Assembly (NCBI RefSeq): GCF_003367375.1
Contig: NZ_CP031416.1
Coordinates: 3,900,674 to 3,940,673 of the forward strand
Origin: Gallaecimonas mangrovi
GTDB taxonomy: Bacteria; Pseudomonadota; Gammaproteobacteria; Enterobacterales; Gallaecimonadaceae
Reading direction: 5' to 3'
DNA: 40,000 nucleotides
Positions 16,117-24,230 of this stretch are shown one piece after another. A model generated the notes under the pieces. The model was not told the origin of the DNA and did no database searches. It was given only the letters and a program-made list of their open reading frames with translations. Both the position numbers and the translations under genes were made by a program. Every line of letters starts with the position of its first letter. Position 1 is the stretch's first letter.

Positions 16117-17640
16117 ATGGCAGTGTCAAAAAGCTTGGTCAGACAATCCCATTTTCTTGGCACCAAAGTCAGGAATTTGCGAAAACGTAACCACCTCACC
16201 ATGGAGGACTTGTCGTCCCGTTGCGTGCGCATCAACCCCGAAAACGCCCCGTCGGTGTCGTACCTGTCGATGATAGAAAGGGGCAAGCGGGTGCCCAGCG
16301 TCGAGATGCTGGAAGTGATTGCCGAGGTCTTTCAAAAAGACGTTAAATGGTTTTTGGACGACGAGCCGGAACAAGCGGAAATTACCCCCGACAAGGGTAA
16401 CCGCGGCGGCATTAGCGGCATGGCGCTGGAACCAGGCTTTTTGTTTTCAAACGAAATACTGCAAATTGCCATTCCAGAAATGCTGTCGCAAACCGGCATC
16501 ACCGGCCGCCAGTTTGCGCACCTATTGATACGTGCCCACCAGGAAAACCTGCAAAACCATTTTCCCAACCTGGAAAGGGCCGCCGAAGAAATCGGCCTAA
16601 AGCGCCTTAACCTGGCGGTGGAAGATTTGGTGGCTATCGCCAGCGACCTTGGCCTTAACATCAAGTGGGTAAAACGCACCCCAAAAGAGGTGGTAGACGA
16701 GCTTGGTATTAGCGCCAAACAGCTAGTGACCTCCTTTTTTGAACCGCCCGGCACCCTTTATTTAAACGAGATGCTGCGCCAATTTCCCACACGCCTGAAA
16801 TACGACCTTGCCGTCTACATTGGCCACAAGGTCTTGCATGGCACCGACGGCGTAAAAGGGGTGCTGACCATCGGCCACACCCAGCCCTGGGAAGAAGACA
16901 ACGCCGCCCCCACCGATGCCCTAAACGCCCAAGACATTTTGCAGGCCTGGCGCGATTTTGAATCGAGCTTTTTTGCCGGCGCGCTGCTCTGCCCCAAGGT
17001 GCCCTTTCGCCAACTGTTAGACAGCAACGGTTATGAAATTGCCGTACACAAAAAGGCCGGAGTGTCGCCGTCGGTGGCCATGCGGCGGATGACGGTGGTG
17101 TCGCCCTACCCGCACTGGCACTACTTCGACGCCTACGGCGAAGGCAAGCTCAAGGCGGTATATCGCGGTAACGGCATTCCGCTACCCTGGGGCAATATGC
17201 GCAAGGTCAAAGACCCTTGCCAGCACTGGGCGGTGTTTCGCCGCCTCTCGCAAGCACAGGCAGGCAACCCCAGCTCAGCGCAAATCTCCATTCTCAATGT
17301 CGGCGACAAGCCGCGTATTTATTGCTGCGAGTCGGTCAATATTCTCGACGCCGCCGGTAACGACCGGGTGCTTTGCGCCGGTATCGACCTTATTCCCGCC
17401 ATTACCGCCCAAGGCGTAGACGCCGACGCCATTGCCAGCGAACTCAAAGCCAGCTGCGTAAAAAGCGGCGGCGCCGCTGCCATCCCTAATGCCATTAAAA
17501 AGGAGCTGCGCACCATCGCCAAAATTCTCAATATCAACTGGATAGAGCGCGGCATCGAAAGCGACGCCCGGCTGATTTGCTCGCGGGGGGCGGTATGCCC
17601 CAGAAAGCCGAGTTGTTATGGGGGTTGCAGTGGCGAGTGA
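16117..17640 (+). CDS. XRE-family HTH regulator with ImmA/IrrE-like and DUF2083 regions (ScfR/RamB/PrpR-like)
   Basis: The N-terminal HTH is LGTKVRNLRKRNHLTMEDLS...VSYLSMIERGKRVPSVEMLEVIAEVF. The 507 aa length and Cys-rich C-terminal end fit the short-chain fatty acyl-CoA regulator family. Confidence 0.6.
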   Translation: MAVSKSLVRQSHFLGTKVRNLRKRNHLTMEDLSSRCVRINPENAPSVSYLSMIERGKRVPSVEMLEVIAEVFQKDVKWFLDDEPEQAEITPDKGNRGGISGMALEPGFLFSNEILQIAIPEMLSQTGITGRQFAHLLIRAHQENLQNHFPNLERAAEEIGLKRLNLAVEDLVAIASDLGLNIKWVKRTPKEVVDELGISAKQLVTSFFEPPGTLYLNEMLRQFPTRLKYDLAVYIGHKVLHGTDGVKGVLTIGHTQPWEEDNAAPTDALNAQDILQAWRDFESSFFAGALLCPKVPFRQLLDSNGYEIAVHKKAGVSPSVAMRRMTVVSPYPHWHYFDAYGEGKLKAVYRGNGIPLPWGNMRKVKDPCQHWAVFRRLSQAQAGNPSSAQISILNVGDKPRIYCCESVNILDAAGNDRVLCAGIDLIPAITAQGVDADAIASELKASCVKSGGAAAIPNAIKKELRTIAKILNINWIERGIESDARLICSRGAVCPRKPSCYGGCSGE

Positions 17641-17939
17641 GCTTTTACTCCCTGGCGGGATACCAGCACCTATTCCTATAACAGCCAAGTTAGGCATATC
17701 CACTTCTTTCACATTTTTAATGCTTAGCCGTTTACCCAGTGTTTTGATGTGGTTATGGTTGTTTAGGTTGGGTTTAACAAATGGATTTGGTGATAGGGAA
17801 GGCTGTCAGCTCAGGATGAGAAAGGGAGATTGGGAACCGCACCCAAGGGCGGTAGCGTCGATTGAGCCTTTTACTACCTAATCAATAACAAACTGATAAT
17901 TAATAGTTTTTCACTCTTACCCTGGTTTCACTGACGGCT

Positions 17940-18146
17940 CCTCTATACGCCGGGTCTCGCCCCGGCAGGCGAGGTACTTTGTTTTCGCACAAAGTACCCA
18001 AAGGCACCGCCCAGACGCTACGCGATGTCCTTACCTCTAGTCGCTTGCCGCTGACCGCTGCGTACGGTTCCCGACGCGTCCTCCGCTCGCTCGACATCCC
18101 TGTCTCGCGTCAGCTCACGCTCCCGACGGTAAGGCGCTCCACTTAA
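17940..18146 (-). repeat. E-family structured element, copy E1 (inverted relative to the other copies)
   Basis: The reverse complement aligns with E2/E3. It has the TTTAAGTGGAGCGCC start, the CCTTACC/GGTAAGG long-range stem, GACA-GGGA-TGTC, GAGCGGAGGA, the GGTACTTTGT/ACAAAGTACC hairpin, and a CCCGGC end. Confidence 0.7.
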
Positions 18147-18523
18147 ATGGGCTCCAAAAGCGGCGTTAGTAACACGTATGGGTGATAGAACTGTCTCAGC
18201 TGCCCCTACACTCCCATCAGCAAAGCGCTGCACTTAACGGGCAATAAGAGCGGTGACAGCAATGCCTTTGGTTGAAAAGACTGACCAAAGCTATTCCATC
18301 AAACCGCGAAGGGAAACAGATGATGTATCGCTTGTGCTATCAAATGACAACAAGCACTTATCTCGCTTTAAAACGATACCGCCCGATTTTATCACGCCAC
18401 AAACTGTGTTTTTGGCAAAAGTAATCATGAATATCATTTAGTTATTTCAATACCAACCAACTGGTCAAGTGAGCAAATGCGAGCACGATCGCTAATAAAA
18501 CTGTTATGCGCTATGGAGAATTC

Positions 18524-18771
18524 ATGAGTAATCTGGAGTTAGAGAAAAAATTCAGCAAACTATTATTAATGCTAGTCCTGGCCAGAAAATCGCACTGAAC
18601 TTCAGTGGTATTCCATTAATAATAGATATAAAAATGGAATTTAAAGGTGGCTGGGAAGTAACACAAACAATTATTCCCGGCAGAGCTTTTGAGTTCACCA
18701 AGGGCGAAGGAGACTTTTTAGTCAGCATTGACATAACGATGAATCCTTATGAAGGGCTTGCGAGCGCATAA
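18524..18771 (+). pseudogene. Small cassette ORF interrupted by a 1-nt frameshift in an A6 run (18545-18550)
   Basis: The ATG at 18524 reads MSNLELEKK and then leaves frame. The +1-shifted frame continues IQQTIINASPGQKIALNFSG...EGLASA to a TAA at 18769-18771, which lies inside the attC 5' box. Confidence 0.45.
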
Positions 18772-18865
18772 CAAACCAAGGCAGTGGGACGATTACATGC
18801 AGGCTCCCGTCACTTCGTTCCGTATTTTAGCCTGCATGTACTTGCCCCTGCTTGGGGCGTTAGGG
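18766..18865 (+). repeat. attC-like recombination site (classical type)
   Basis: The 5' box is GCATAAC and the 3' box GTTAGGG. The arms CCAAGGCAGTGGG / CCCCTGCTTGG pair, with an extra unpaired base in the 5' arm. There is a perfect 12-bp inner inverted repeat, TACATGCAGGCT (18794-18805) / AGCCTGCATGTA (18829-18840). Confidence 0.65.
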
Positions 18866-18904
18866 CTACCACATCGTTAAAATAACCAGCATAACGAATA
18901 AACC

Positions 18905-19891
18905 ATGAAGGTTAACTATTTCGGTTACTGTATAAGAAACCATGTAACAGGTCAGAAAATGCTATTTGACCTTAGAGATTTTTTGAAGGCATATTGCCGC
19001 CATGCCAGTACAGCATTTAAAAACAACTTTTTCCATAATGATGAGCATGTGTATCTTATTCATCATTTTGGAGATACTTTCCTTTTCTTAATTACAAGAA
19101 GCCATGAACTGATTAAGAAAGTGAATACTAATAATGTTTCCGTTGGTGAGATTAATTCGCTACTTGAACAAGATGAGCAACTTGGGTTCGCATCTTACTT
19201 ACATATAAAAGAGGATCATTTCGGGTTTGCATCTACATTGCTCGCGCCTAGAGTGGATGTTTTTACAACACACATAAATAACCTCCTTGAATCACTTGGA
19301 ATCCCTAATTTAAATTTCTTGCCACAAGCCTTGCTTTATCAAGCAACAAAAGAAGAAGCATTGTCGCTGCCACATATTGGGAGGACTACCATTGAACTGT
19401 CCAAGGAAAACTCATTTGTACAGGACATACTTGCGTCAATTTCCGCAAACACGACCGATACAATTGAACTTGATGGCATTGAGATCGTAATAAAGCCTAA
19501 GTCAAGAAAGAACATAAAGCCTACTGTTAGTAAGTTTCTATCATCTATCCCTGATGATGGCGTCGAGCGGATGATTATGAAAGCGAGAAATGAAGGTGCT
19601 TCTCAGATGACTGATTTATATCTGGTTGGTCGTGGAGCCATTTCAGATAGCGTGGATAAATCACAAGAAACTCGTATACCATCTCTATTAGAAGAGAAGA
19701 TGAATAGAAATAGATTTTTACAAGACAAGTTAACGGAGTACAGGGCTGATGAAGGTTTCGAGGAAAATTCTCTTGATGTTATTGTTCGGTTTACTGACGC
19801 TAGTGCCTGGGCCGATCTTTTATCTGATGTATTGCAAGATAGTAGCGATAGACCCGAGTTGGTCGATGAGCCTGATAGAACAGAAGAATAA
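18905..19891 (+). CDS. RexA-like abortive-infection protein
   Basis: The gene is AT-rich. By recollection it is collinear with lambda RexA. HVYLIHHFGDTFLFLITR matches NYLYIHKIDGKTFLFTKT, and EQDEQLGFASYLHI matches ADDESLGFPSFLFV. HIGRTTIEL matches FIGRTTVKV, and IEIVIKPKSRKNIK matches LDIVIKPKFKRDIK. Confidence 0.6.
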   Translation: MKVNYFGYCIRNHVTGQKMLFDLRDFLKAYCRHASTAFKNNFFHNDEHVYLIHHFGDTFLFLITRSHELIKKVNTNNVSVGEINSLLEQDEQLGFASYLHIKEDHFGFASTLLAPRVDVFTTHINNLLESLGIPNLNFLPQALLYQATKEEALSLPHIGRTTIELSKENSFVQDILASISANTTDTIELDGIEIVIKPKSRKNIKPTVSKFLSSIPDDGVERMIMKARNEGASQMTDLYLVGRGAISDSVDKSQETRIPSLLEEKMNRNRFLQDKLTEYRADEGFEENSLDVIVRFTDASAWADLLSDVLQDSSDRPELVDEPDRTEE

Positions 19892-20216
19892 TCTTGCTGT
19901 AATTGTAGCGACATTTGCATTTACTATGCTTGGATTTTTGGCAGCAGTGATAACAATCCTATTCTCTTTTTCTCGGTCTAGCACATTTAAAAAGTACAAG
20001 CGCAAAGGGCATTTAGATGTATTCTTCTTTGTCTACTATTTTGCGATAGTAAGCCTTGTTGTTACTTTTGTACTCGCTTTATTAACATTGGCTAGTGGTA
20101 ATGGATTATGGGCAATGCGAGGTGGACTGATGTCGACAGTCAATAATTTGGCTCAAATCACTTTACTGACTGTAATCATTGTAAATCTAAGCCGTAGGGC
20201 AATGAACGAGCCCTAA
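19749..20216 (+). CDS. RexB-like small membrane protein (4 TM from ATG 19749; 3 TM if ATG 19866)
   Basis: Its size and hydrophobicity pattern resemble lambda RexB, with a central basic loop (SRSSTFKKYKRKG vs GSRTRRLAKIRE). GGAG lies 10 nt before the ATG at 19749. The TAA stop is inside the CCCTAAC box of the next attC-like site. Confidence 0.55.
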   Translation: MKVSRKILLMLLFGLLTLVPGPIFYLMYCKIVAIDPSWSMSLIEQKNNLAVIVATFAFTMLGFLAAVITILFSFSRSSTFKKYKRKGHLDVFFFVYYFAIVSLVVTFVLALLTLASGNGLWAMRGGLMSTVNNLAQITLLTVIIVNLSRRAMNEP

Positions 20217-20354
20217 CAAGCGGCAGCAATCGGACTTACAAAACTGTCACTTGTTTTGCCAAAAAAGTGGCAAGAAAAACGTGGGACACCCACTTCTATA
20301 TCCCAATAAAATCAAATGGTAACGAAGCCACCTGCTTTTGGGGCCCCTTTAAGT
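20211..20354 (+). repeat. attC-like site, large conserved type (B-type), copy 1
   Basis: It starts with CCCTAACAAGCGGCAGCAATCGG. The conserved centre is ACCCACTTCTATATCCCAATAAAATCAAATGGTAACGAAGCCACC. It ends CTGCTTTTGGGGCCCCTTTAAGT. Confidence 0.5.
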
Positions 20355-20560
20355 GAAGCGCTGAGTGGAAAGGAACGTGAGTGGGCACGAGGCATGGACG
20401 CCGAGTGAGCGGAAGAAGGGCAGGATGCCCGTGTGCAGCGACCGCGGTAAGTGACTGGAAGCGAAGCAATAGCGTAACGCCGGGGTGTCGTTCTTTGCTT
20501 ACTTTCTTGGACAAGCAAGAAAGTAAGTCGCCCGCCGGGGCGAGTCCCGGCATTAACACA
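20349..20560 (+). repeat. E-family structured element, copy E2 (possible ncRNA)
   Basis: It begins at the TTAAGTG box and has GAGCGGAAGA and the GGGC-AGGAT-GCCC hairpin. A 12-bp hairpin CTTACTTTCTTG/CAAGAAAGTAAG follows. The GCCGGG/CCCGGC arms close the 3' domain. Confidence 0.7.
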
Positions 20561-20650
20561 CCAACCAGCGAATGAGGAAACTGAAGGTATAGCCATCTTT
20601 TTTATTAGTTTTCTCTAGAATTGACCTTTGTTTAAAAATGGTAAGACCCG

Positions 20651-21391
20651 ATGTTAAGACCAGAAATATTAAAAAGAGTAAAAGAAGAAATAGATCCATC
20701 ACTTTCTATTACGAAAAGAACAACTCCAGTTCCATACTTTGGGGATTATGATAATGCAAGAGCTTGTACTATCTCATTAAACCCAAGCGACCGAGAGTTT
20801 TGTGATAAAAATGGTGAAATTCTAATTCCAGAAAAAACAAGACTATGTTCAAGACAAGAACTTGAAAGAGAAGATTCTCAAGAGTTAACAGATTCAGAGG
20901 CAATAAAGGTAATCGATAATTGTAAAAATTATTTTAGAAAAAATCCTTATAAGTTATGGTTCAATAAATATGAAGAGTTCCTAAAGCAGTTTGAACTTTC
21001 ATACTATGATGGGTCGGCTGTACATCTTGATATTGTTCAATGGGCAACGACACCTTTTTGGAATAAGCTAAGTTCAGATACAAAAAGTATCCTTTTAAAA
21101 AAAGACCTACCTTTTTTAAAGCTGCTATTAGAAAAGAATTTTGATTTTATATTTCTAAATGGATTAACAGCTGTGACTGAAACAGCAAATGTTTTAGATA
21201 TCAGTCTGAATGCTATTCCATCAGAACTAATAGATGGTAAAGTCTCCCAAGTTTTTCTAGGGTGGTACAATAATTCTAGAGTAATAGGATGGTCTCCATA
21301 TATTCAGTCAGCATCAGTTGGCGGTTATAATAAAATAAGAAAAATTGCAGAAAAAATTATATCTGAAAATAGAAAAGACCTCATAAAATAA
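20651..21391 (+). CDS. Hypothetical cassette protein (very weak resemblance to UDG-superfamily motif order)
   Basis: An AT-rich 246-aa ORF followed immediately by an attC-like site. The order ACTISLNPSDRE ... IFLNG ... GWSPY loosely recalls UDG/MUG folds. This is speculative. Confidence 0.5.
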   Translation: MLRPEILKRVKEEIDPSLSITKRTTPVPYFGDYDNARACTISLNPSDREFCDKNGEILIPEKTRLCSRQELEREDSQELTDSEAIKVIDNCKNYFRKNPYKLWFNKYEEFLKQFELSYYDGSAVHLDIVQWATTPFWNKLSSDTKSILLKKDLPFLKLLLEKNFDFIFLNGLTAVTETANVLDISLNAIPSELIDGKVSQVFLGWYNNSRVIGWSPYIQSASVGGYNKIRKIAEKIISENRKDLIK

Positions 21392-21497
21392 TTTAGCGGA
21401 TCTTGAAATTTACTGGTTTTGCAAAACGTAGAATACCCACCTTTATATTCAAATAAAATCAAAAGTTAACGAAGCCACCAGCCTTCGCCCGTTAAGT
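21389..21497 (+). repeat. attC-like site, B-type, copy 2
   Basis: It starts at the stop codon (TAATTTAGCGG). The centre is ACCCACCTTTATATTCAAATAAAATCAAAAGTTAACGAAGCCACC. It ends with a canonical GTTAAGT (21491-21497). Confidence 0.5.
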
Positions 21498-21711
21498 GCA
21501 GCGCCTCGCGGGAAGGAGTGGGAGCTGACTTGAGGCAAGGATGCCGAAAGAGCGGAAGACGCGTCGGGAACGCGTGTGCAGCGGTCAGCGGTAAATGACT
21601 GGTAGCGAGGAAATCGCGGAACGTGGGTTGTGCTTTTGGTTGGGCAGCCCCGCTGACTTTTGGCGTAACAAAAGTAACCCGGCTGCCGGGCCGGAACCCG
21701 GCGTGTAACGG
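21492..21711 (+). repeat. E-family structured element, copy E3 (possible ncRNA)
   Basis: Paired helices are CCTCGC 21504-21509 with GCGAGG 21605-21610, GCTGAC 21523-21528 with GTCAGC 21584-21589, and GGCA-AGGA-TGCC. Further helices are ACGCG-TCGGGAA-CGCGT and ACTTTTG-GCGTAA-CAAAAGT. Confidence 0.7.
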
Positions 21712-21761
21712 AACCAGCAAGTATCATCAGGCAAGCAACTGACGCCCAATAACACAGACCA

Positions 21762-22591: not shown

Positions 22592-22690
22592 CTGAACAAA
22601 GTCAGATCTCTAACGAAGCTAGCTGCTTTTGGGCCCCAATAGCGTAACGCCCGGCGGATAGAGAAACCGAGTGGCATCACACCAATAAAA
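22592..22690 (+). repeat. Degenerate junction: internally deleted attC-like site fused to a deleted E element (mini copy E4)
   Basis: CTGAACAAAGTCAG...TCTAACGAAGCTAGCTGCTTTTGGGCCCC runs directly into AATAGCGTAACGCC and then CCCGGCGGATAGAG. The TTAAGT box and both E domains are missing. Confidence 0.55.
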
Positions 22691-23616: not shown

Positions 23617-23767
23617 GTTAAACAATCGTGCAGCAAATCACCCGCACAGTCGCAAGGCCATTAGCGTGCTGATGGCACTATTAGCAAATAGACGTGGGGC
23701 ACCCACTTCTACATCCCAATAGAATCAAAAGTTAACAAAGCCACCTGCTTTTGGGGCCCCTTTAAGT
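23617..23767 (+). repeat. attC-like site, B-type, copy 3
   Basis: The 5' arm GTTAAACAATCGTGCAGCAAATC parallels CCCTAACAAGCGGCAGCAATCGG of copy 1. The centre and 3' end are nearly identical to copy 1 and end in TTTAAGT (23761-23767). Confidence 0.5.
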
Positions 23768-24141
23768 GAAGCGCCTTACTGGCGGGAGTGGGAGCTGATG
23801 CGAGTCAGGGATGAGAGGCGGCCAGCTTGGTCAAACTGAACACGCGTCGGGGCGAAGCTTGCGCATCAAAGTGCTGCTTTGATGCTGCTGAGCGCGAGCA
23901 CAGGACGTGGCGAGCCGGAATGCTAGCAACACGGGATTCAATCAGGACACCGCGACAAATTTGCCAGGAGCAAATTTGAATATCGGCGCTTGCGACGATT
24001 ACCCGTTAGGGCGAAGACCGTGGATGGTCTGAGTAAACGTGGGCAGTGCTTTTGGTTGGGCAGCCCCACTAACTTTTGACGTAATGTATACAACGTAACA
24101 AAAGTAACCCGGCTGCCGGGCCGGGACCCGGCATTAAAAAC
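23762..24141 (+). repeat. E-family structured element, copy E5 (expanded first domain)
   Basis: It has the same start and the same 3' domain as E3. About 0.2 kb of extra hairpins sit in the first domain, for example CATCAAAG-TGCTG-CTTTGATG and CAAATTTG-CCAGGAG-CAAATTTG. Confidence 0.65.
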
Positions 24142-24202
24142 CCGGCGGATAAAGGGATCACCCGTTTCAACAAACCCCAAAATCCACTAAACCCAACCCA
24201 CA

Positions 24203-24230
24203 AAAAAGCCGCCCTAGGGCGGCTTTTTTT
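24203..24230. terminator. Hairpin terminator at the right array/core boundary
   Basis: AAAAAAGCCGCCCTAGGGCGGCTTTTTTT lies just downstream of the minus-strand peptidase gene. Confidence 0.8.

What the first reader, a model, noticed from the sequence alone, without database searches (positions are those of the whole stretch)
18905..20216. Lambda RexA/RexB-like abortive-infection pair carried as a single integron-type cassette
The 328-aa ORF is collinear with phage lambda RexA as I remember that sequence. Matching blocks are YLIHHFGDTFLFLITR, DEQLGFASYL, HIGRTTIEL and IEIVIKPKSRKNIK. The downstream ORF is a small polytopic membrane protein with a central basic loop, like RexB. Here the pair is not in a prophage. 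It sits between two attC-like sites, with its stop codon inside the downstream site. That would make it a promoterless, mobilisable defence cassette. Recent work reported anti-phage systems in sedentary integron cassettes, and a Rex-type pair would fit that picture.
Basis: partly seen in the sequence, partly recalled or inferred. Interest (0 to 1): 0.65.

Follow-up and report, generated by a model that had tools for sequence, protein, structure and literature searches.

The report
Stranded RexAB anti-phage integron cassette
The two genes are true relatives of the phage lambda RexA/RexB "suicide on infection" defence pair and began as a mobile integron gene cassette, but in this Gallaecimonas chromosome the cassette has lost half of its downstream recombination site and has no integrase nearby, so it is probably a stranded copy of an already known kind of element.

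Summary
ORF 18905-19891 is RexA: Pfam PF15969 at 7e-67 over the full profile, 30% identity to lambda RexA, and PDB 8TWQ as top hit by sequence and by fold. ORF 19749-20216 is a four-helix membrane RexB: PADLOC 2e-24, and hhalign 95% against lambda RexB.

The cassette origin is shown. The same 1.4-kb unit, 96% identical, occurs in four metagenome contigs with different neighbours each time. Its boundaries fall exactly at G|TTAGGGC. In one contig it lies behind a true integron integrase. Its attC is homologous over its whole length to the dfrA15 attC of class 1 integrons.

Only the upstream attC (18766-18865) is intact. The downstream attC is cut after its apical loop at about 20273 and cannot fold. 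No IntI lies within the 40 kb. The two-cassette fragment sits between inverted copies of a roughly 330-nt structured repeat that is confined to a 6.5-kb strain-specific island.

A RexAB-like integron cassette (Sucellos, Vibrio cholerae) has already been published and tested. This is therefore a new member of a known kind, here as an immobilised relic whose genes are still under purifying selection. Interest is moderate to low.

The parts
18246..18765 (+). Low-GC remnant of the preceding (upstream) cassette. It holds only short ORFs, for example 18634-18771, whose stop lies in the R'' box of the attC that follows.
   Evidence: GC drops from about 0.50-0.59 to about 0.41. ORF list. No Pfam family. 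No homology to the arrays L001-L004 upstream of 18844.
18766..18865 (+). Complete attC site of the upstream cassette (R'' GCATAAC ... R' GTTAGGG). The cassette junction G|TT is at 18859|18860.
   Evidence: The bottom strand folds as DNA at -20.6 kcal/mol, z -3.5, with the AAC/GTT boxes paired and extrahelical bases. The arrays L001-L004 diverge from the window just 5' of GCGTTAGGGC.
18860..20273 (+). The rexAB integron cassette. It runs from TTAGGGC... to the break inside its own attC, so about 1414 of the 1451 bp of the intact cassette are kept.
   Evidence: 95.7-96.3% DNA identity to L001, L002, L003 and L004, with different neighbours on both sides in each. GC 0.37-0.41 against about 0.53 in the flanks.
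18905..19891 (+). rexA, 328 aa. It encodes the cytoplasmic DNA-binding sensor component. The start is at M1 (MKVNYFGYC), which is conserved in homologues.
   Evidence: Pfam PF15969 7e-67 over 1-235/235. PADLOC RexA 5.5e-66. BLASTP to lambda RexA E 1e-26. PDB 8TWQ 4.6e-24. AlphaFold model pLDDT 79.8, with Foldseek top hit 8TWQ at E 2.5e-14. dN/dS 0.19 against the L001 copy.
19749..20216 (+). rexB, 155 aa, a four-transmembrane-helix effector. It overlaps the 3' end of rexA by 143 nt in another frame. Its stop codon lies in the attC R'' box.
   Evidence: PADLOC RexB 2e-24 over 10-140/141. A profile of 9 homologues against lambda RexB gives hhalign 95.2%, E 2.5e-8, 130 columns, including TM1. Hydropathy peaks at 7-25, 50-68, 91-109 and 127-145. 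The ATG and an upstream GGAG are conserved in 7 loci. dN/dS 0.07.
20211..20273 (+). Truncated attC of the rexAB cassette. R'' (CCCTAAC), L'' and the apical hairpin are kept. L' and R' are lost.
   Evidence: Aligned with the intact 106-nt attC of L001, L003 and L004 and with attC of dfrA15 on pKP13f. Homology ends after GCCAAAAAA. The R'' box has no partner and the attC hairpin cannot form.
17900..18245 (-). Structured GC-rich repeat el1, in inverted orientation. It forms the left flank of the integron fragment.
   Evidence: Repeat search and blastn, alignment, nhmmer 2.4e-85.
20279..20600 (+). Structured GC-rich repeat el2. It replaces the 3' half of the attC and forms the right flank of the integron fragment. 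Further copies lie at 21426-21745 (+), 22611-22660 (partial) and 23692-24230 (+).
   Evidence: RNAalifold finds 21 of 76 pairs with compensatory changes among 3 copies. GGA occurs 9-12 times against TCC 0-2 times per copy. No Rfam family matches.

Best explanation
Window 18860-20273 is a two-gene RexAB-type abortive-infection module that was packaged as one integron gene cassette. It now sits, with the 3' part of the preceding cassette, as a stranded fragment of a cassette array in a strain-specific island of a Gallaecimonas chromosome.

The mechanism is inferred from homology to lambda and Pseudomonas putida RexAB. [quoted passage not shown] RexB would be a four-helix inner-membrane protein that damages or depolarises the membrane, stopping growth before the phage completes its cycle.

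rexB starts 143 nt inside rexA in another frame. Its GGAG Shine-Dalgarno sequence and its ATG are conserved across the subfamily.

In intact copies the cassette can be moved by an integron integrase through an attC of the dfrA15 type. In this window the attC is cut in its middle and no integrase is near, so the local copy is probably fixed in place. Its expression would depend on unknown outside transcription.
For: RexA identity. RexB identity and topology. Conserved overlap, SD and start.

Cassette nature. A 96% identical unit occurs in four contigs with different neighbours, and its boundaries fall at G|TTAGGGC and GCG|TTA. L002 carries an integron integrase (TIGR02249, 461 bits) followed by five small cassettes and then rexAB. 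The intact attC folds at -35.1 kcal/mol with z -6.9. It aligns over its full length with the dfrA15 attC, which lies directly behind dfrA15 in an intI1-dfrA15-cmlA4 integron. An 85% identical version in L142 has the same attC type and lies next to a TIR-domain gene.

Stranding. There is one complete attC and one half attC. No IntI is found by tblastn. The low-GC fragment is flanked by inverted el repeats. The island is absent from G. pentaromativorans.

Genes still constrained. Both ORFs are intact, and dN/dS against the L001 copy is 0.19 for rexA and 0.07 for rexB.

Mechanistic precedent: P. putida RexAB (PMC12894663), lambda RexA structure and DNA binding (PMC11077077), and Sucellos, where both genes are required and the outcome is cell death.
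Against: No functional data exist for this protein pair, so defence activity, trigger and membrane effect are all inferred. The RexB match to Pfam PF15968 is below the gathering score (22.3 against 27 bits), and direct BLASTP to lambda RexB is not significant. No promoter was found upstream, so the pair may be silent here. Only 40 kb were seen, so an integron integrase elsewhere on the 4.07-Mb chromosome is not excluded. A distant integrase could still act on the one intact attC. How the fragment arrived and how its attC was cut are not explained.
Confidence: 0.85

Rival explanations
1. The pair is an intact, mobilisable cassette inside a working sedentary chromosomal integron, or inside an attC cluster without integrase (CALIN), of this genome.
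For: The upstream attC is intact and folds well. The cassette boundary sequence is canonical. The ORFs are intact and under purifying selection. The rest of the chromosome was not seen.
Against: The downstream attC lacks L' and R' and cannot fold. Only one complete attC was found in 40 kb. No IntI was found. The neighbouring modules are bounded by el repeats, not by attC sites.
Confidence: 0.07
2. The pair is a leftover accessory gene (moron) of a decayed prophage, as with lambda rexAB, and the attC-like sequences are incidental.
For: The same RexA subfamily lies at the edge of prophage tail and lysis modules in L012 (72% identity) and in phage-like regulatory regions in L013-L018 (63% identity).
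Against: No phage genes flank the pair in the window. The unit is bounded exactly as an integron cassette and recurs in different arrays, one with IntI. Its attC is homologous to a known functional attC.
Confidence: 0.03
3. The genes are true RexAB homologues but do not act in defence here. Either they are silent, with no promoter, or RexA serves another DNA-binding or regulatory role, as lambda RexA does in the lysis-lysogeny switch.
For: No promoter-like site lies between 18246 and 18904. The upstream el1 repeat is oriented away and carries a terminator-like hairpin on the + strand. Lambda RexA has a RexB-independent role (PMC11077077).
Against: Low dN/dS in both genes since divergence from the metagenomic copies. 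However, most of that divergence may pre-date the stranding. The conserved two-gene architecture with overlapping reading frames argues for joint function.
Confidence: 0.2
4. The integron fragment was captured and moved by the el repeats. On this reading, el1(-) and el2(+) act as the ends of a composite or MITE-pair mobile unit, comparable to integron mobilisation units.
For: Inverted el copies flank exactly the 2-kb foreign fragment. Relatives of the el core form a dispersed, MITE-like family of about 360 nt with 17-nt terminal inverted repeats in metagenomes.
Against: The window el copies lack those terminal inverted repeats, and no target-site duplication was seen. el2-el5 are in direct orientation around other genes. 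One el copy (el5) is at a conserved position next to the peptidase gene in another Gallaecimonas species, so it looks like a resident gene or element rather than a transposon end.
Confidence: 0.08

Closest known systems
Phage lambda RexA/RexB exclusion system (PF15969/PF15968; PDB 8TWQ)
   Same: The gene order is the same, rexA then rexB. RexA is collinear over the whole Pfam profile and has the same fold. RexB has the same four-helix topology and basic central loop.
   Different: RexA is 328 aa against 279 aa in lambda. It has an extra C-terminal helical stretch and a disordered acidic tail (pLDDT below 50 for 308-328). rexB starts 143 nt inside rexA, whereas in lambda the genes are separated by 15 nt. 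The carrier is an integron cassette, not the immunity region of a prophage next to cI.
Sucellos (sclA/sclB), the RexAB-like two-gene cassette of the Vibrio cholerae N16961 chromosomal integron (Darracq et al. 2024, bioRxiv 10.1101/2024.07.02.601686)
   Same: It is a two-gene RexAB-type abortive-infection pair in a single integron cassette. In Sucellos both genes are needed and infected cells die.
   Different: Sucellos is reported as not matched by the RexA Pfam domain and as having its own promoter. The present RexA scores 226 bits on PF15969, and no promoter was found. No Sucellos sequence was available here, so no direct comparison was made.
RexAB of Pseudomonas putida prophage P1 (PP_5643/PP_5644; PMC12894663)
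   Same: It has a long RexA (about 37 kDa) plus a four-helix RexB. RexA binds DNA, and RexA overexpression triggers RexB-dependent membrane damage. Pseudomonas members of the present subfamily exist (L007, 39% identity; L009).
   Different: It is prophage-borne. It was detectable against lambda RexA only by HHpred, so it is probably more divergent than the protein here. No direct comparison was made.
dfrA15 cassette attC of class 1 integrons (for example pKP13f, NZ_CP004000.1)
   Same: The attC of the intact rexAB cassette aligns with it over its whole length, including R'', the apical hairpin TTTTGCCAAAAA..GGCAAAA, and R'.
   Different: The cargo differs (trimethoprim resistance against phage defence). 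In the window only the 5' half survives.

Membership tests
RexA (Pfam PF15969) | Whole-protein score above the Pfam gathering score, with full-length profile coverage | tested here: met
   225.9 bits against a cut-off of 25. Residues 1-235 match profile positions 1-235/235. PADLOC RexA 5.5e-66.
RexA (Pfam PF15969) | Direct sequence and fold similarity to lambda RexA (PDB 8TWQ) | tested here: met
   BLASTP 30% identity, E 1e-26. phmmer against PDB 4.6e-24. Foldseek top hit 8TWQ, E 2.5e-14, probability 1.00. TM is only 0.41-0.48, which may reflect a different domain orientation.
RexA (Pfam PF15969) | Dimeric, non-specific DNA binding | not testable with these tools
   Known for lambda, actinophage and P. 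putida homologues. Not measured here.
RexB (Pfam PF15968) | Score above the Pfam gathering score | tested here: not met
   22.3 bits against a cut-off of 27, E 2e-4. Direct BLASTP to lambda RexB is not significant.
RexB (Pfam PF15968) | Profile-level homology to RexB over the whole protein | tested here: met
   PADLOC RexB PDLC02340 2e-24, profile positions 10-140/141. hhalign of a 9-sequence profile against lambda RexB gives 95.2%, E 2.5e-8, 130 aligned columns.
RexB (Pfam PF15968) | Small inner-membrane protein with four transmembrane helices, encoded directly downstream of rexA | tested here: met
   There are four hydropathy peaks, matching those of lambda RexB in position. The gene lies directly after rexA and overlaps it.
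RexAB abortive-infection system | Phage-triggered, RexA-dependent activation of RexB with loss of membrane potential and aborted infection | not testable with these tools
   Inferred from homology only.
Integron gene cassette | The unit ends in an attC with paired R''/R' boxes and extrahelical bases. Its boundaries lie at G|TT of R' | tested here: inconclusive
   Met for the intact copies in L001, L003 and L004 (106-nt attC, -35.1 kcal/mol, z -6.9). Met for the 5' boundary in the window (18859|18860). Not met for the window's own attC, which is cut after the apical loop.
Integron gene cassette | The same unit is found in different arrays with different neighbours, that is, evidence of independent movement | tested here: met
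   There are four contexts at 96% identity and a fifth at 85%.
Integron gene cassette | Association with an integron integrase (IntI) | tested here: met
   L002 carries a divergently oriented integrase matching TIGR02249 at 461 bits (cut-off 265), then five small ORFs, then rexAB. This is not met in the window itself.
Complete integron or CALIN at this locus | IntI plus attI, or at least two attC sites in an array | tested here: not met
   No IntI was found by tblastn (best E 5.1). The window holds one complete attC and one half attC. Other regex and fold candidates lie inside coding regions.
Sucellos (sclAB) | Sequence homology to V. cholerae SclA/SclB | not tested
The paper states that Sucellos is not matched by the RexA Pfam model, so it is at most a distant relative.

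The most novel reading that the evidence does not exclude
The roughly 330-nt structured el repeats are not mere bystanders. On this reading they mark a previously undescribed kind of single-gene module array or insertion hot spot. In it, gene-sized pieces of foreign DNA with very different GC content (0.33 to 0.59) are each bounded by a copy of a conserved structured element that is rich in GGA loops. The rexAB integron fragment would be one captured module. The repeats could act as recombination sites, or as paralogous CsrA/RsmA-sponge-like sRNA genes that attract insertions.
Probability: 0.08. Interest if true: 0.7.

Novelty: new member of a known kind. Interest (0 to 1): 0.35.

Why it matters
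It adds a Pfam-level RexAB system to the anti-phage systems known to travel as integron cassettes. Until now only the distant, structure-level relative Sucellos had been reported.

Its attC belongs to the same family as that of a clinical class 1 integron cassette (dfrA15). Intact copies could therefore in principle enter mobile integrons.

The same RexAB subfamily is found in prophages and in cassettes, with a conserved rexA/rexB overlap. This gives a concrete pair of contexts for asking how phage accessory genes and integron cassettes exchange cargo.

The local copy shows how cassettes can leave integrons and become fixed in chromosomal islands. None of this changes current concepts.

Tried and rejected
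- Exact look-ups of the window's RexA, both the 328-aa form and the 310-aa form, found no contig on record.
- The genome-contig scan returned only distant RexA loci and not the source genome.
- The host genus was instead inferred from the peptidase S15 neighbour, which is 83% identical to that of G. pentaromativorans.
- Megablast of the flank against E. coli genomes gave no match.
- My first two attC scans (regex plus fold) were either too strict, missing the real site, or too loose, giving many hits inside coding regions. A tighter pattern left a single credible intergenic attC in the window.
- I looked for the missing 3' half of the attC elsewhere in the window. There is no second GGGCGTTA-type R', so a simple insertion of el2 into the attC is not supported.
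- BLASTP of RexB against lambda RexB was not significant. Profile methods were needed.
- Rfam at gathering threshold and at E-values up to 10 gave no family for the el repeats. It gave only terminator look-alikes and a weak TwoAYGGAY hit (18 bits, E 3.7).
- blastn of el5 against plasmids matched only the terminator.
- A full-text search for the repeat's sequence strings found nothing relevant.
- The downstream region of the prophage copy L012 begins with CCCTAAC and ends with GTTATG but does not fold better than shuffles (z -0.7 and +0.5). I therefore do not call it an attC.
- PADLOC, Pfam and NCBIfam found no defence family for the other island genes.
Full report
**The ORFs and their families**

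The window holds a 328-aa ORF at 18905-19891. A 155-aa ORF at 19749-20216 overlaps its end in another frame. This stretch is low in GC (0.37-0.41) against about 0.53 in the flanks.

The first ORF is RexA:
- Pfam PF15969 scores 225.9 bits (E 7e-67) over the whole profile.
- PADLOC RexA scores 5.5e-66.
- PHROG 12654, 'RexA-like exclusion protein', scores 6.7e-36.
- Direct BLASTP against lambda RexA from NC_001416 gives 30% identity over 233 residues, E 1e-26.
- The only PDB sequence match is lambda RexA 8TWQ (4.6e-24).
- An AlphaFold model built on 22 homologues has mean pLDDT 79.8. Its top Foldseek hit is 8TWQ (E 2.5e-14, probability 1.00). The modest TM-score (0.41-0.48) may reflect a different relative domain orientation.
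- Residues 308-328, an acidic tail, are predicted disordered.

The second ORF is RexB:
- Pfam RexB is below its cut-off (22.3 against 27 bits).
- BLASTP against lambda RexB is not significant.
- The PADLOC RexB model scores 2e-24 over positions 10-140 of 141.
- A profile of nine subfamily members aligns to lambda RexB with hhalign probability 95.2% (E 2.5e-8) over 130 columns.
- Hydropathy shows four membrane segments and a basic central loop, at positions that mirror lambda RexB.

**The rexB start lies inside rexA**

The homology to lambda RexB includes the first membrane helix. That helix is encoded inside the 3' end of rexA. In seven loci of the subfamily the rexB frame opens with an ATG at the same place. 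In six of the seven a GGAG lies about 10 nt upstream of that ATG. The overlap ranges from 98 to 143 nt. The gene callers used on the metagenome contigs picked a later ATG, giving 116 aa. That choice would remove the first helix. In lambda the two genes do not overlap.

**Cassette origin**

The RexA cluster at 90% identity has members on several metagenome contigs. Four contigs (L001-L004) carry DNA that is 95.7-96.3% identical to window 18844/18852-20266 and unrelated DNA on both sides.

The breakpoints are exact:
- Upstream, all copies diverge just before GCGTTAGGGC.
- Downstream, L001, L003 and L004 diverge just after GGGCGTTA.

These are the G|TT crossover points of attC sites.

L002 has a divergently oriented integron integrase (TIGR02249, 461 bits against a cut-off of 265). 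Five small ORFs follow it, and then rexAB. In the other contigs the neighbours are ParDE toxin-antitoxin pairs, a NYN-domain gene and similar small genes. An 85%-identical version lies next to a TIR-domain gene.

The intact attC of the cassette is 106 nt long. Its bottom strand folds at -35.1 kcal/mol (z -6.9). It aligns over its whole length with the attC that follows dfrA15 in class 1 integrons such as intI1-dfrA15-cmlA4 on pKP13f. The unit is therefore a true, independently mobile integron cassette of about 1451 bp.

**The local context**

The upstream attC (18766-18865) is complete. It folds at -20.6 kcal/mol with z -3.5. The downstream attC keeps R'' (which holds the rexB stop codon), L'' and the apical hairpin. 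It then loses homology at about 20267-20275, so L' and R' are absent and the hairpin cannot form.

A tblastn search with the L002 integrase finds nothing in the 40 kb. Pattern-plus-fold scans leave no other credible intergenic attC. The missing half is not elsewhere in the window. This locus is therefore neither an integron nor a CALIN. The local cassette should not be excisable by attC x attC recombination.

No sigma-70-like promoter was found between 18246 and 18904. The leader is only 45 nt long.

Both ORFs are intact. dN/dS against the L001 copy is 0.19 for rexA and 0.07 for rexB. This shows purifying selection in the lineage as a whole. It does not necessarily reflect the period since stranding.

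**Host and island**

The flanking peptidase S15 gene is 83% identical to that of Gallaecimonas pentaromativorans. The window's proteins come from one 4.07-Mb NCBI contig.

In G. pentaromativorans, synteny with the window holds on the peptidase side and stops at the peptidase gene. Everything from 17.6 to 23.7 kb is absent there.

Within this island, five copies of a GC-rich repeat of about 330 nt ('el') occur and nowhere else in the window:
- 17900-18245 (-)
- 20279-20600 (+)
- 21426-21745 (+)
- a fragment at 22611-22660
- 23692-24230 (+)

The integron fragment, made of the upstream cassette remnant plus rexAB, lies exactly between the first two copies, which are inverted relative to each other. 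The other copies separate single genes of very different GC content: an unknown 246-aa ORF, an alpha/beta hydrolase and a GDSL-like hydrolase.

The last copy has a counterpart next to the peptidase gene in G. pentaromativorans. At least that one therefore looks resident.

**Other contexts of the subfamily**

- A 72%-identical pair lies at the end of a prophage tail and lysis module (L012).
- A 63%-identical pair lies in a phage-like regulatory region on twelve contigs (L013-L018).
- A 68%-identical pair in Microbulbifer lies beside tgt/queA and small ORFs. It has no attC, but its 5' leader is homologous to that of the cassette.
- More distant members in Vibrio cortegadensis, Methylophaga, Pseudomonas and Methylovulum show no attC.

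The module thus moves between prophages, islands and integron cassettes.

**Mechanism (inferred)**

By homology with lambda RexAB, RexA is a dimeric, non-specific DNA-binding protein with an RdgC-like fold (PMC11077077). By homology with P. putida RexAB, RexA overexpression triggers RexB-dependent growth arrest and membrane damage (PMC12894663). By homology with Sucellos, both genes are required and infected cells die.

The most likely function is therefore abortive infection. RexA senses infection and activates RexB. RexB damages or depolarises the membrane.

- Shown here: family membership, topology, gene architecture, cassette structure and selection.
- Inferred: the trigger, the membrane effect, and whether the local copy is expressed.

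**Novelty**

Anti-phage systems in integron cassettes are established. A RexAB-like two-gene cassette (Sucellos) has been tested in V. cholerae, and it was reported as not matched by the RexA Pfam model. A full-text search for integron, cassettes and RexAB together returned only that work and reviews.

The present cassette is thus a closer, Pfam-level RexAB in cassette form. The local copy is a stranded relic. I rate it as a new member of a known kind, with moderate to low interest. The el repeats are the least explained feature of the region.

Noticed in passing
window 17900-18245 (-), 20279-20600 (+), 21426-21745 (+), 22611-22660 (partial), 23692-24230 (+): Five copies of a GC-rich repeat of about 330 nt occur, 61-93% identical to one another, and only inside the 6.5-kb island. 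Each copy separates a gene-sized module. Among three copies, 21 of 76 predicted base pairs show compensatory changes. GGA occurs 9-12 times per copy against TCC 0-2 times, often in hairpin loops such as GGCAUGGACGCC and GGGCAGGAUGCCC. A promoter-like GGGACA-18-TAAAAT lies at the 5' edge. No Rfam family matches. One possibility is a CsrA/RsmA-sponge-like sRNA gene family. The strand and the function are unproven.
   Followed up: partly
L022-L141 (metagenome contigs); L010 2150-2480: The 3' module of the el repeat (AGAAAGTA..TCGCC...GCGAG..CCCG) matches more than 120 metagenome stretches, with several copies per contig. The shared unit is about 360 nt and has no conserved flanking gene. It has 17-nt terminal inverted repeats, TAACTGATGTTACGCAG ... 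CTGCGTAACATCAGTTA. This is a dispersed, MITE-like structured element, and I found no published description of it.
   Followed up: partly
window 19749-19891; L005, L006, L007, L012, L013, L019: rexB starts inside rexA in another frame, with an overlap of 98-143 nt. A conserved GGAG lies about 10 nt upstream of a conserved ATG. The invariant RexA residue W302 (the SAW motif) is encoded by the same bases as the invariant RexB P-G-P motif. Gene callers chose a later start, which drops the first membrane helix.
   Followed up: yes
window 18905 vs 18959: The NCBI record appears to annotate RexA as 310 aa starting at M19 (cluster member P0051). The Pfam profile and the homologues support M1 (MKVNYFGYC) at 18905.
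   Followed up: partly
L012 7001-8404: A 72%-identical rexAB lies at the end of a prophage tail and lysis module. It is followed by a stretch that starts with CCCTAAC and ends with GTTATG but does not fold like an attC. It may be a decayed attC. That would suggest transfer of the cassette into a phage, but this is not shown.
   Followed up: partly
L142 595-1488; L001 1478-2016; L004 2243-2874: Neighbours of the rexAB cassette in other arrays include a CAP12-PCTIR TIR-domain gene and ParE/ParD toxin-antitoxin cassettes. This fits defence-rich and addiction-rich chromosomal integrons.
   Followed up: no
window 20651-21391 (+): A 246-aa ORF with very low GC (about 0.33) lies between el2 and el3. 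It has no Pfam, PADLOC or NCBIfam match and is alone in its 90% cluster. Its function is unknown.
   Followed up: partly
L020 15868-19698 (G. pentaromativorans, downstream of the peptidase S15 gene): The equivalent locus in the related species is also a variable region. It has its own repeated intergenic sequences (85-nt and 31-nt families). It also has tandem copies of a GGGACACCC-type motif that resembles the GTGGGACACCCAC palindrome at the 5' edge of the el copies.
   Followed up: no
L002 4731-4782: In the contig that carries the integrase, homology to the cassette stops inside rexB (window 20018) 50 nt before the contig end. rexB is truncated there. This may be an assembly artefact or an insertion.
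   Followed up: no
window 16117-17640 (+): The gene just left of the island encodes an HTH_3 plus Peptidase_M78 (ImmA/IrrE-like) plus DUF3612 regulator. This architecture is often linked to mobile elements. Its PADLOC hits are confined to the HTH region, residues 7-88.
   Followed up: no
window 24202-24229: A perfect GC-rich hairpin with A and T runs on both sides (AAAAAAGCCGCCCTAGGGCGGCTTTTTTT) lies between el5 and the converging peptidase gene. It is a probable bidirectional terminator, and it is conserved in G. pentaromativorans.
   Followed up: no
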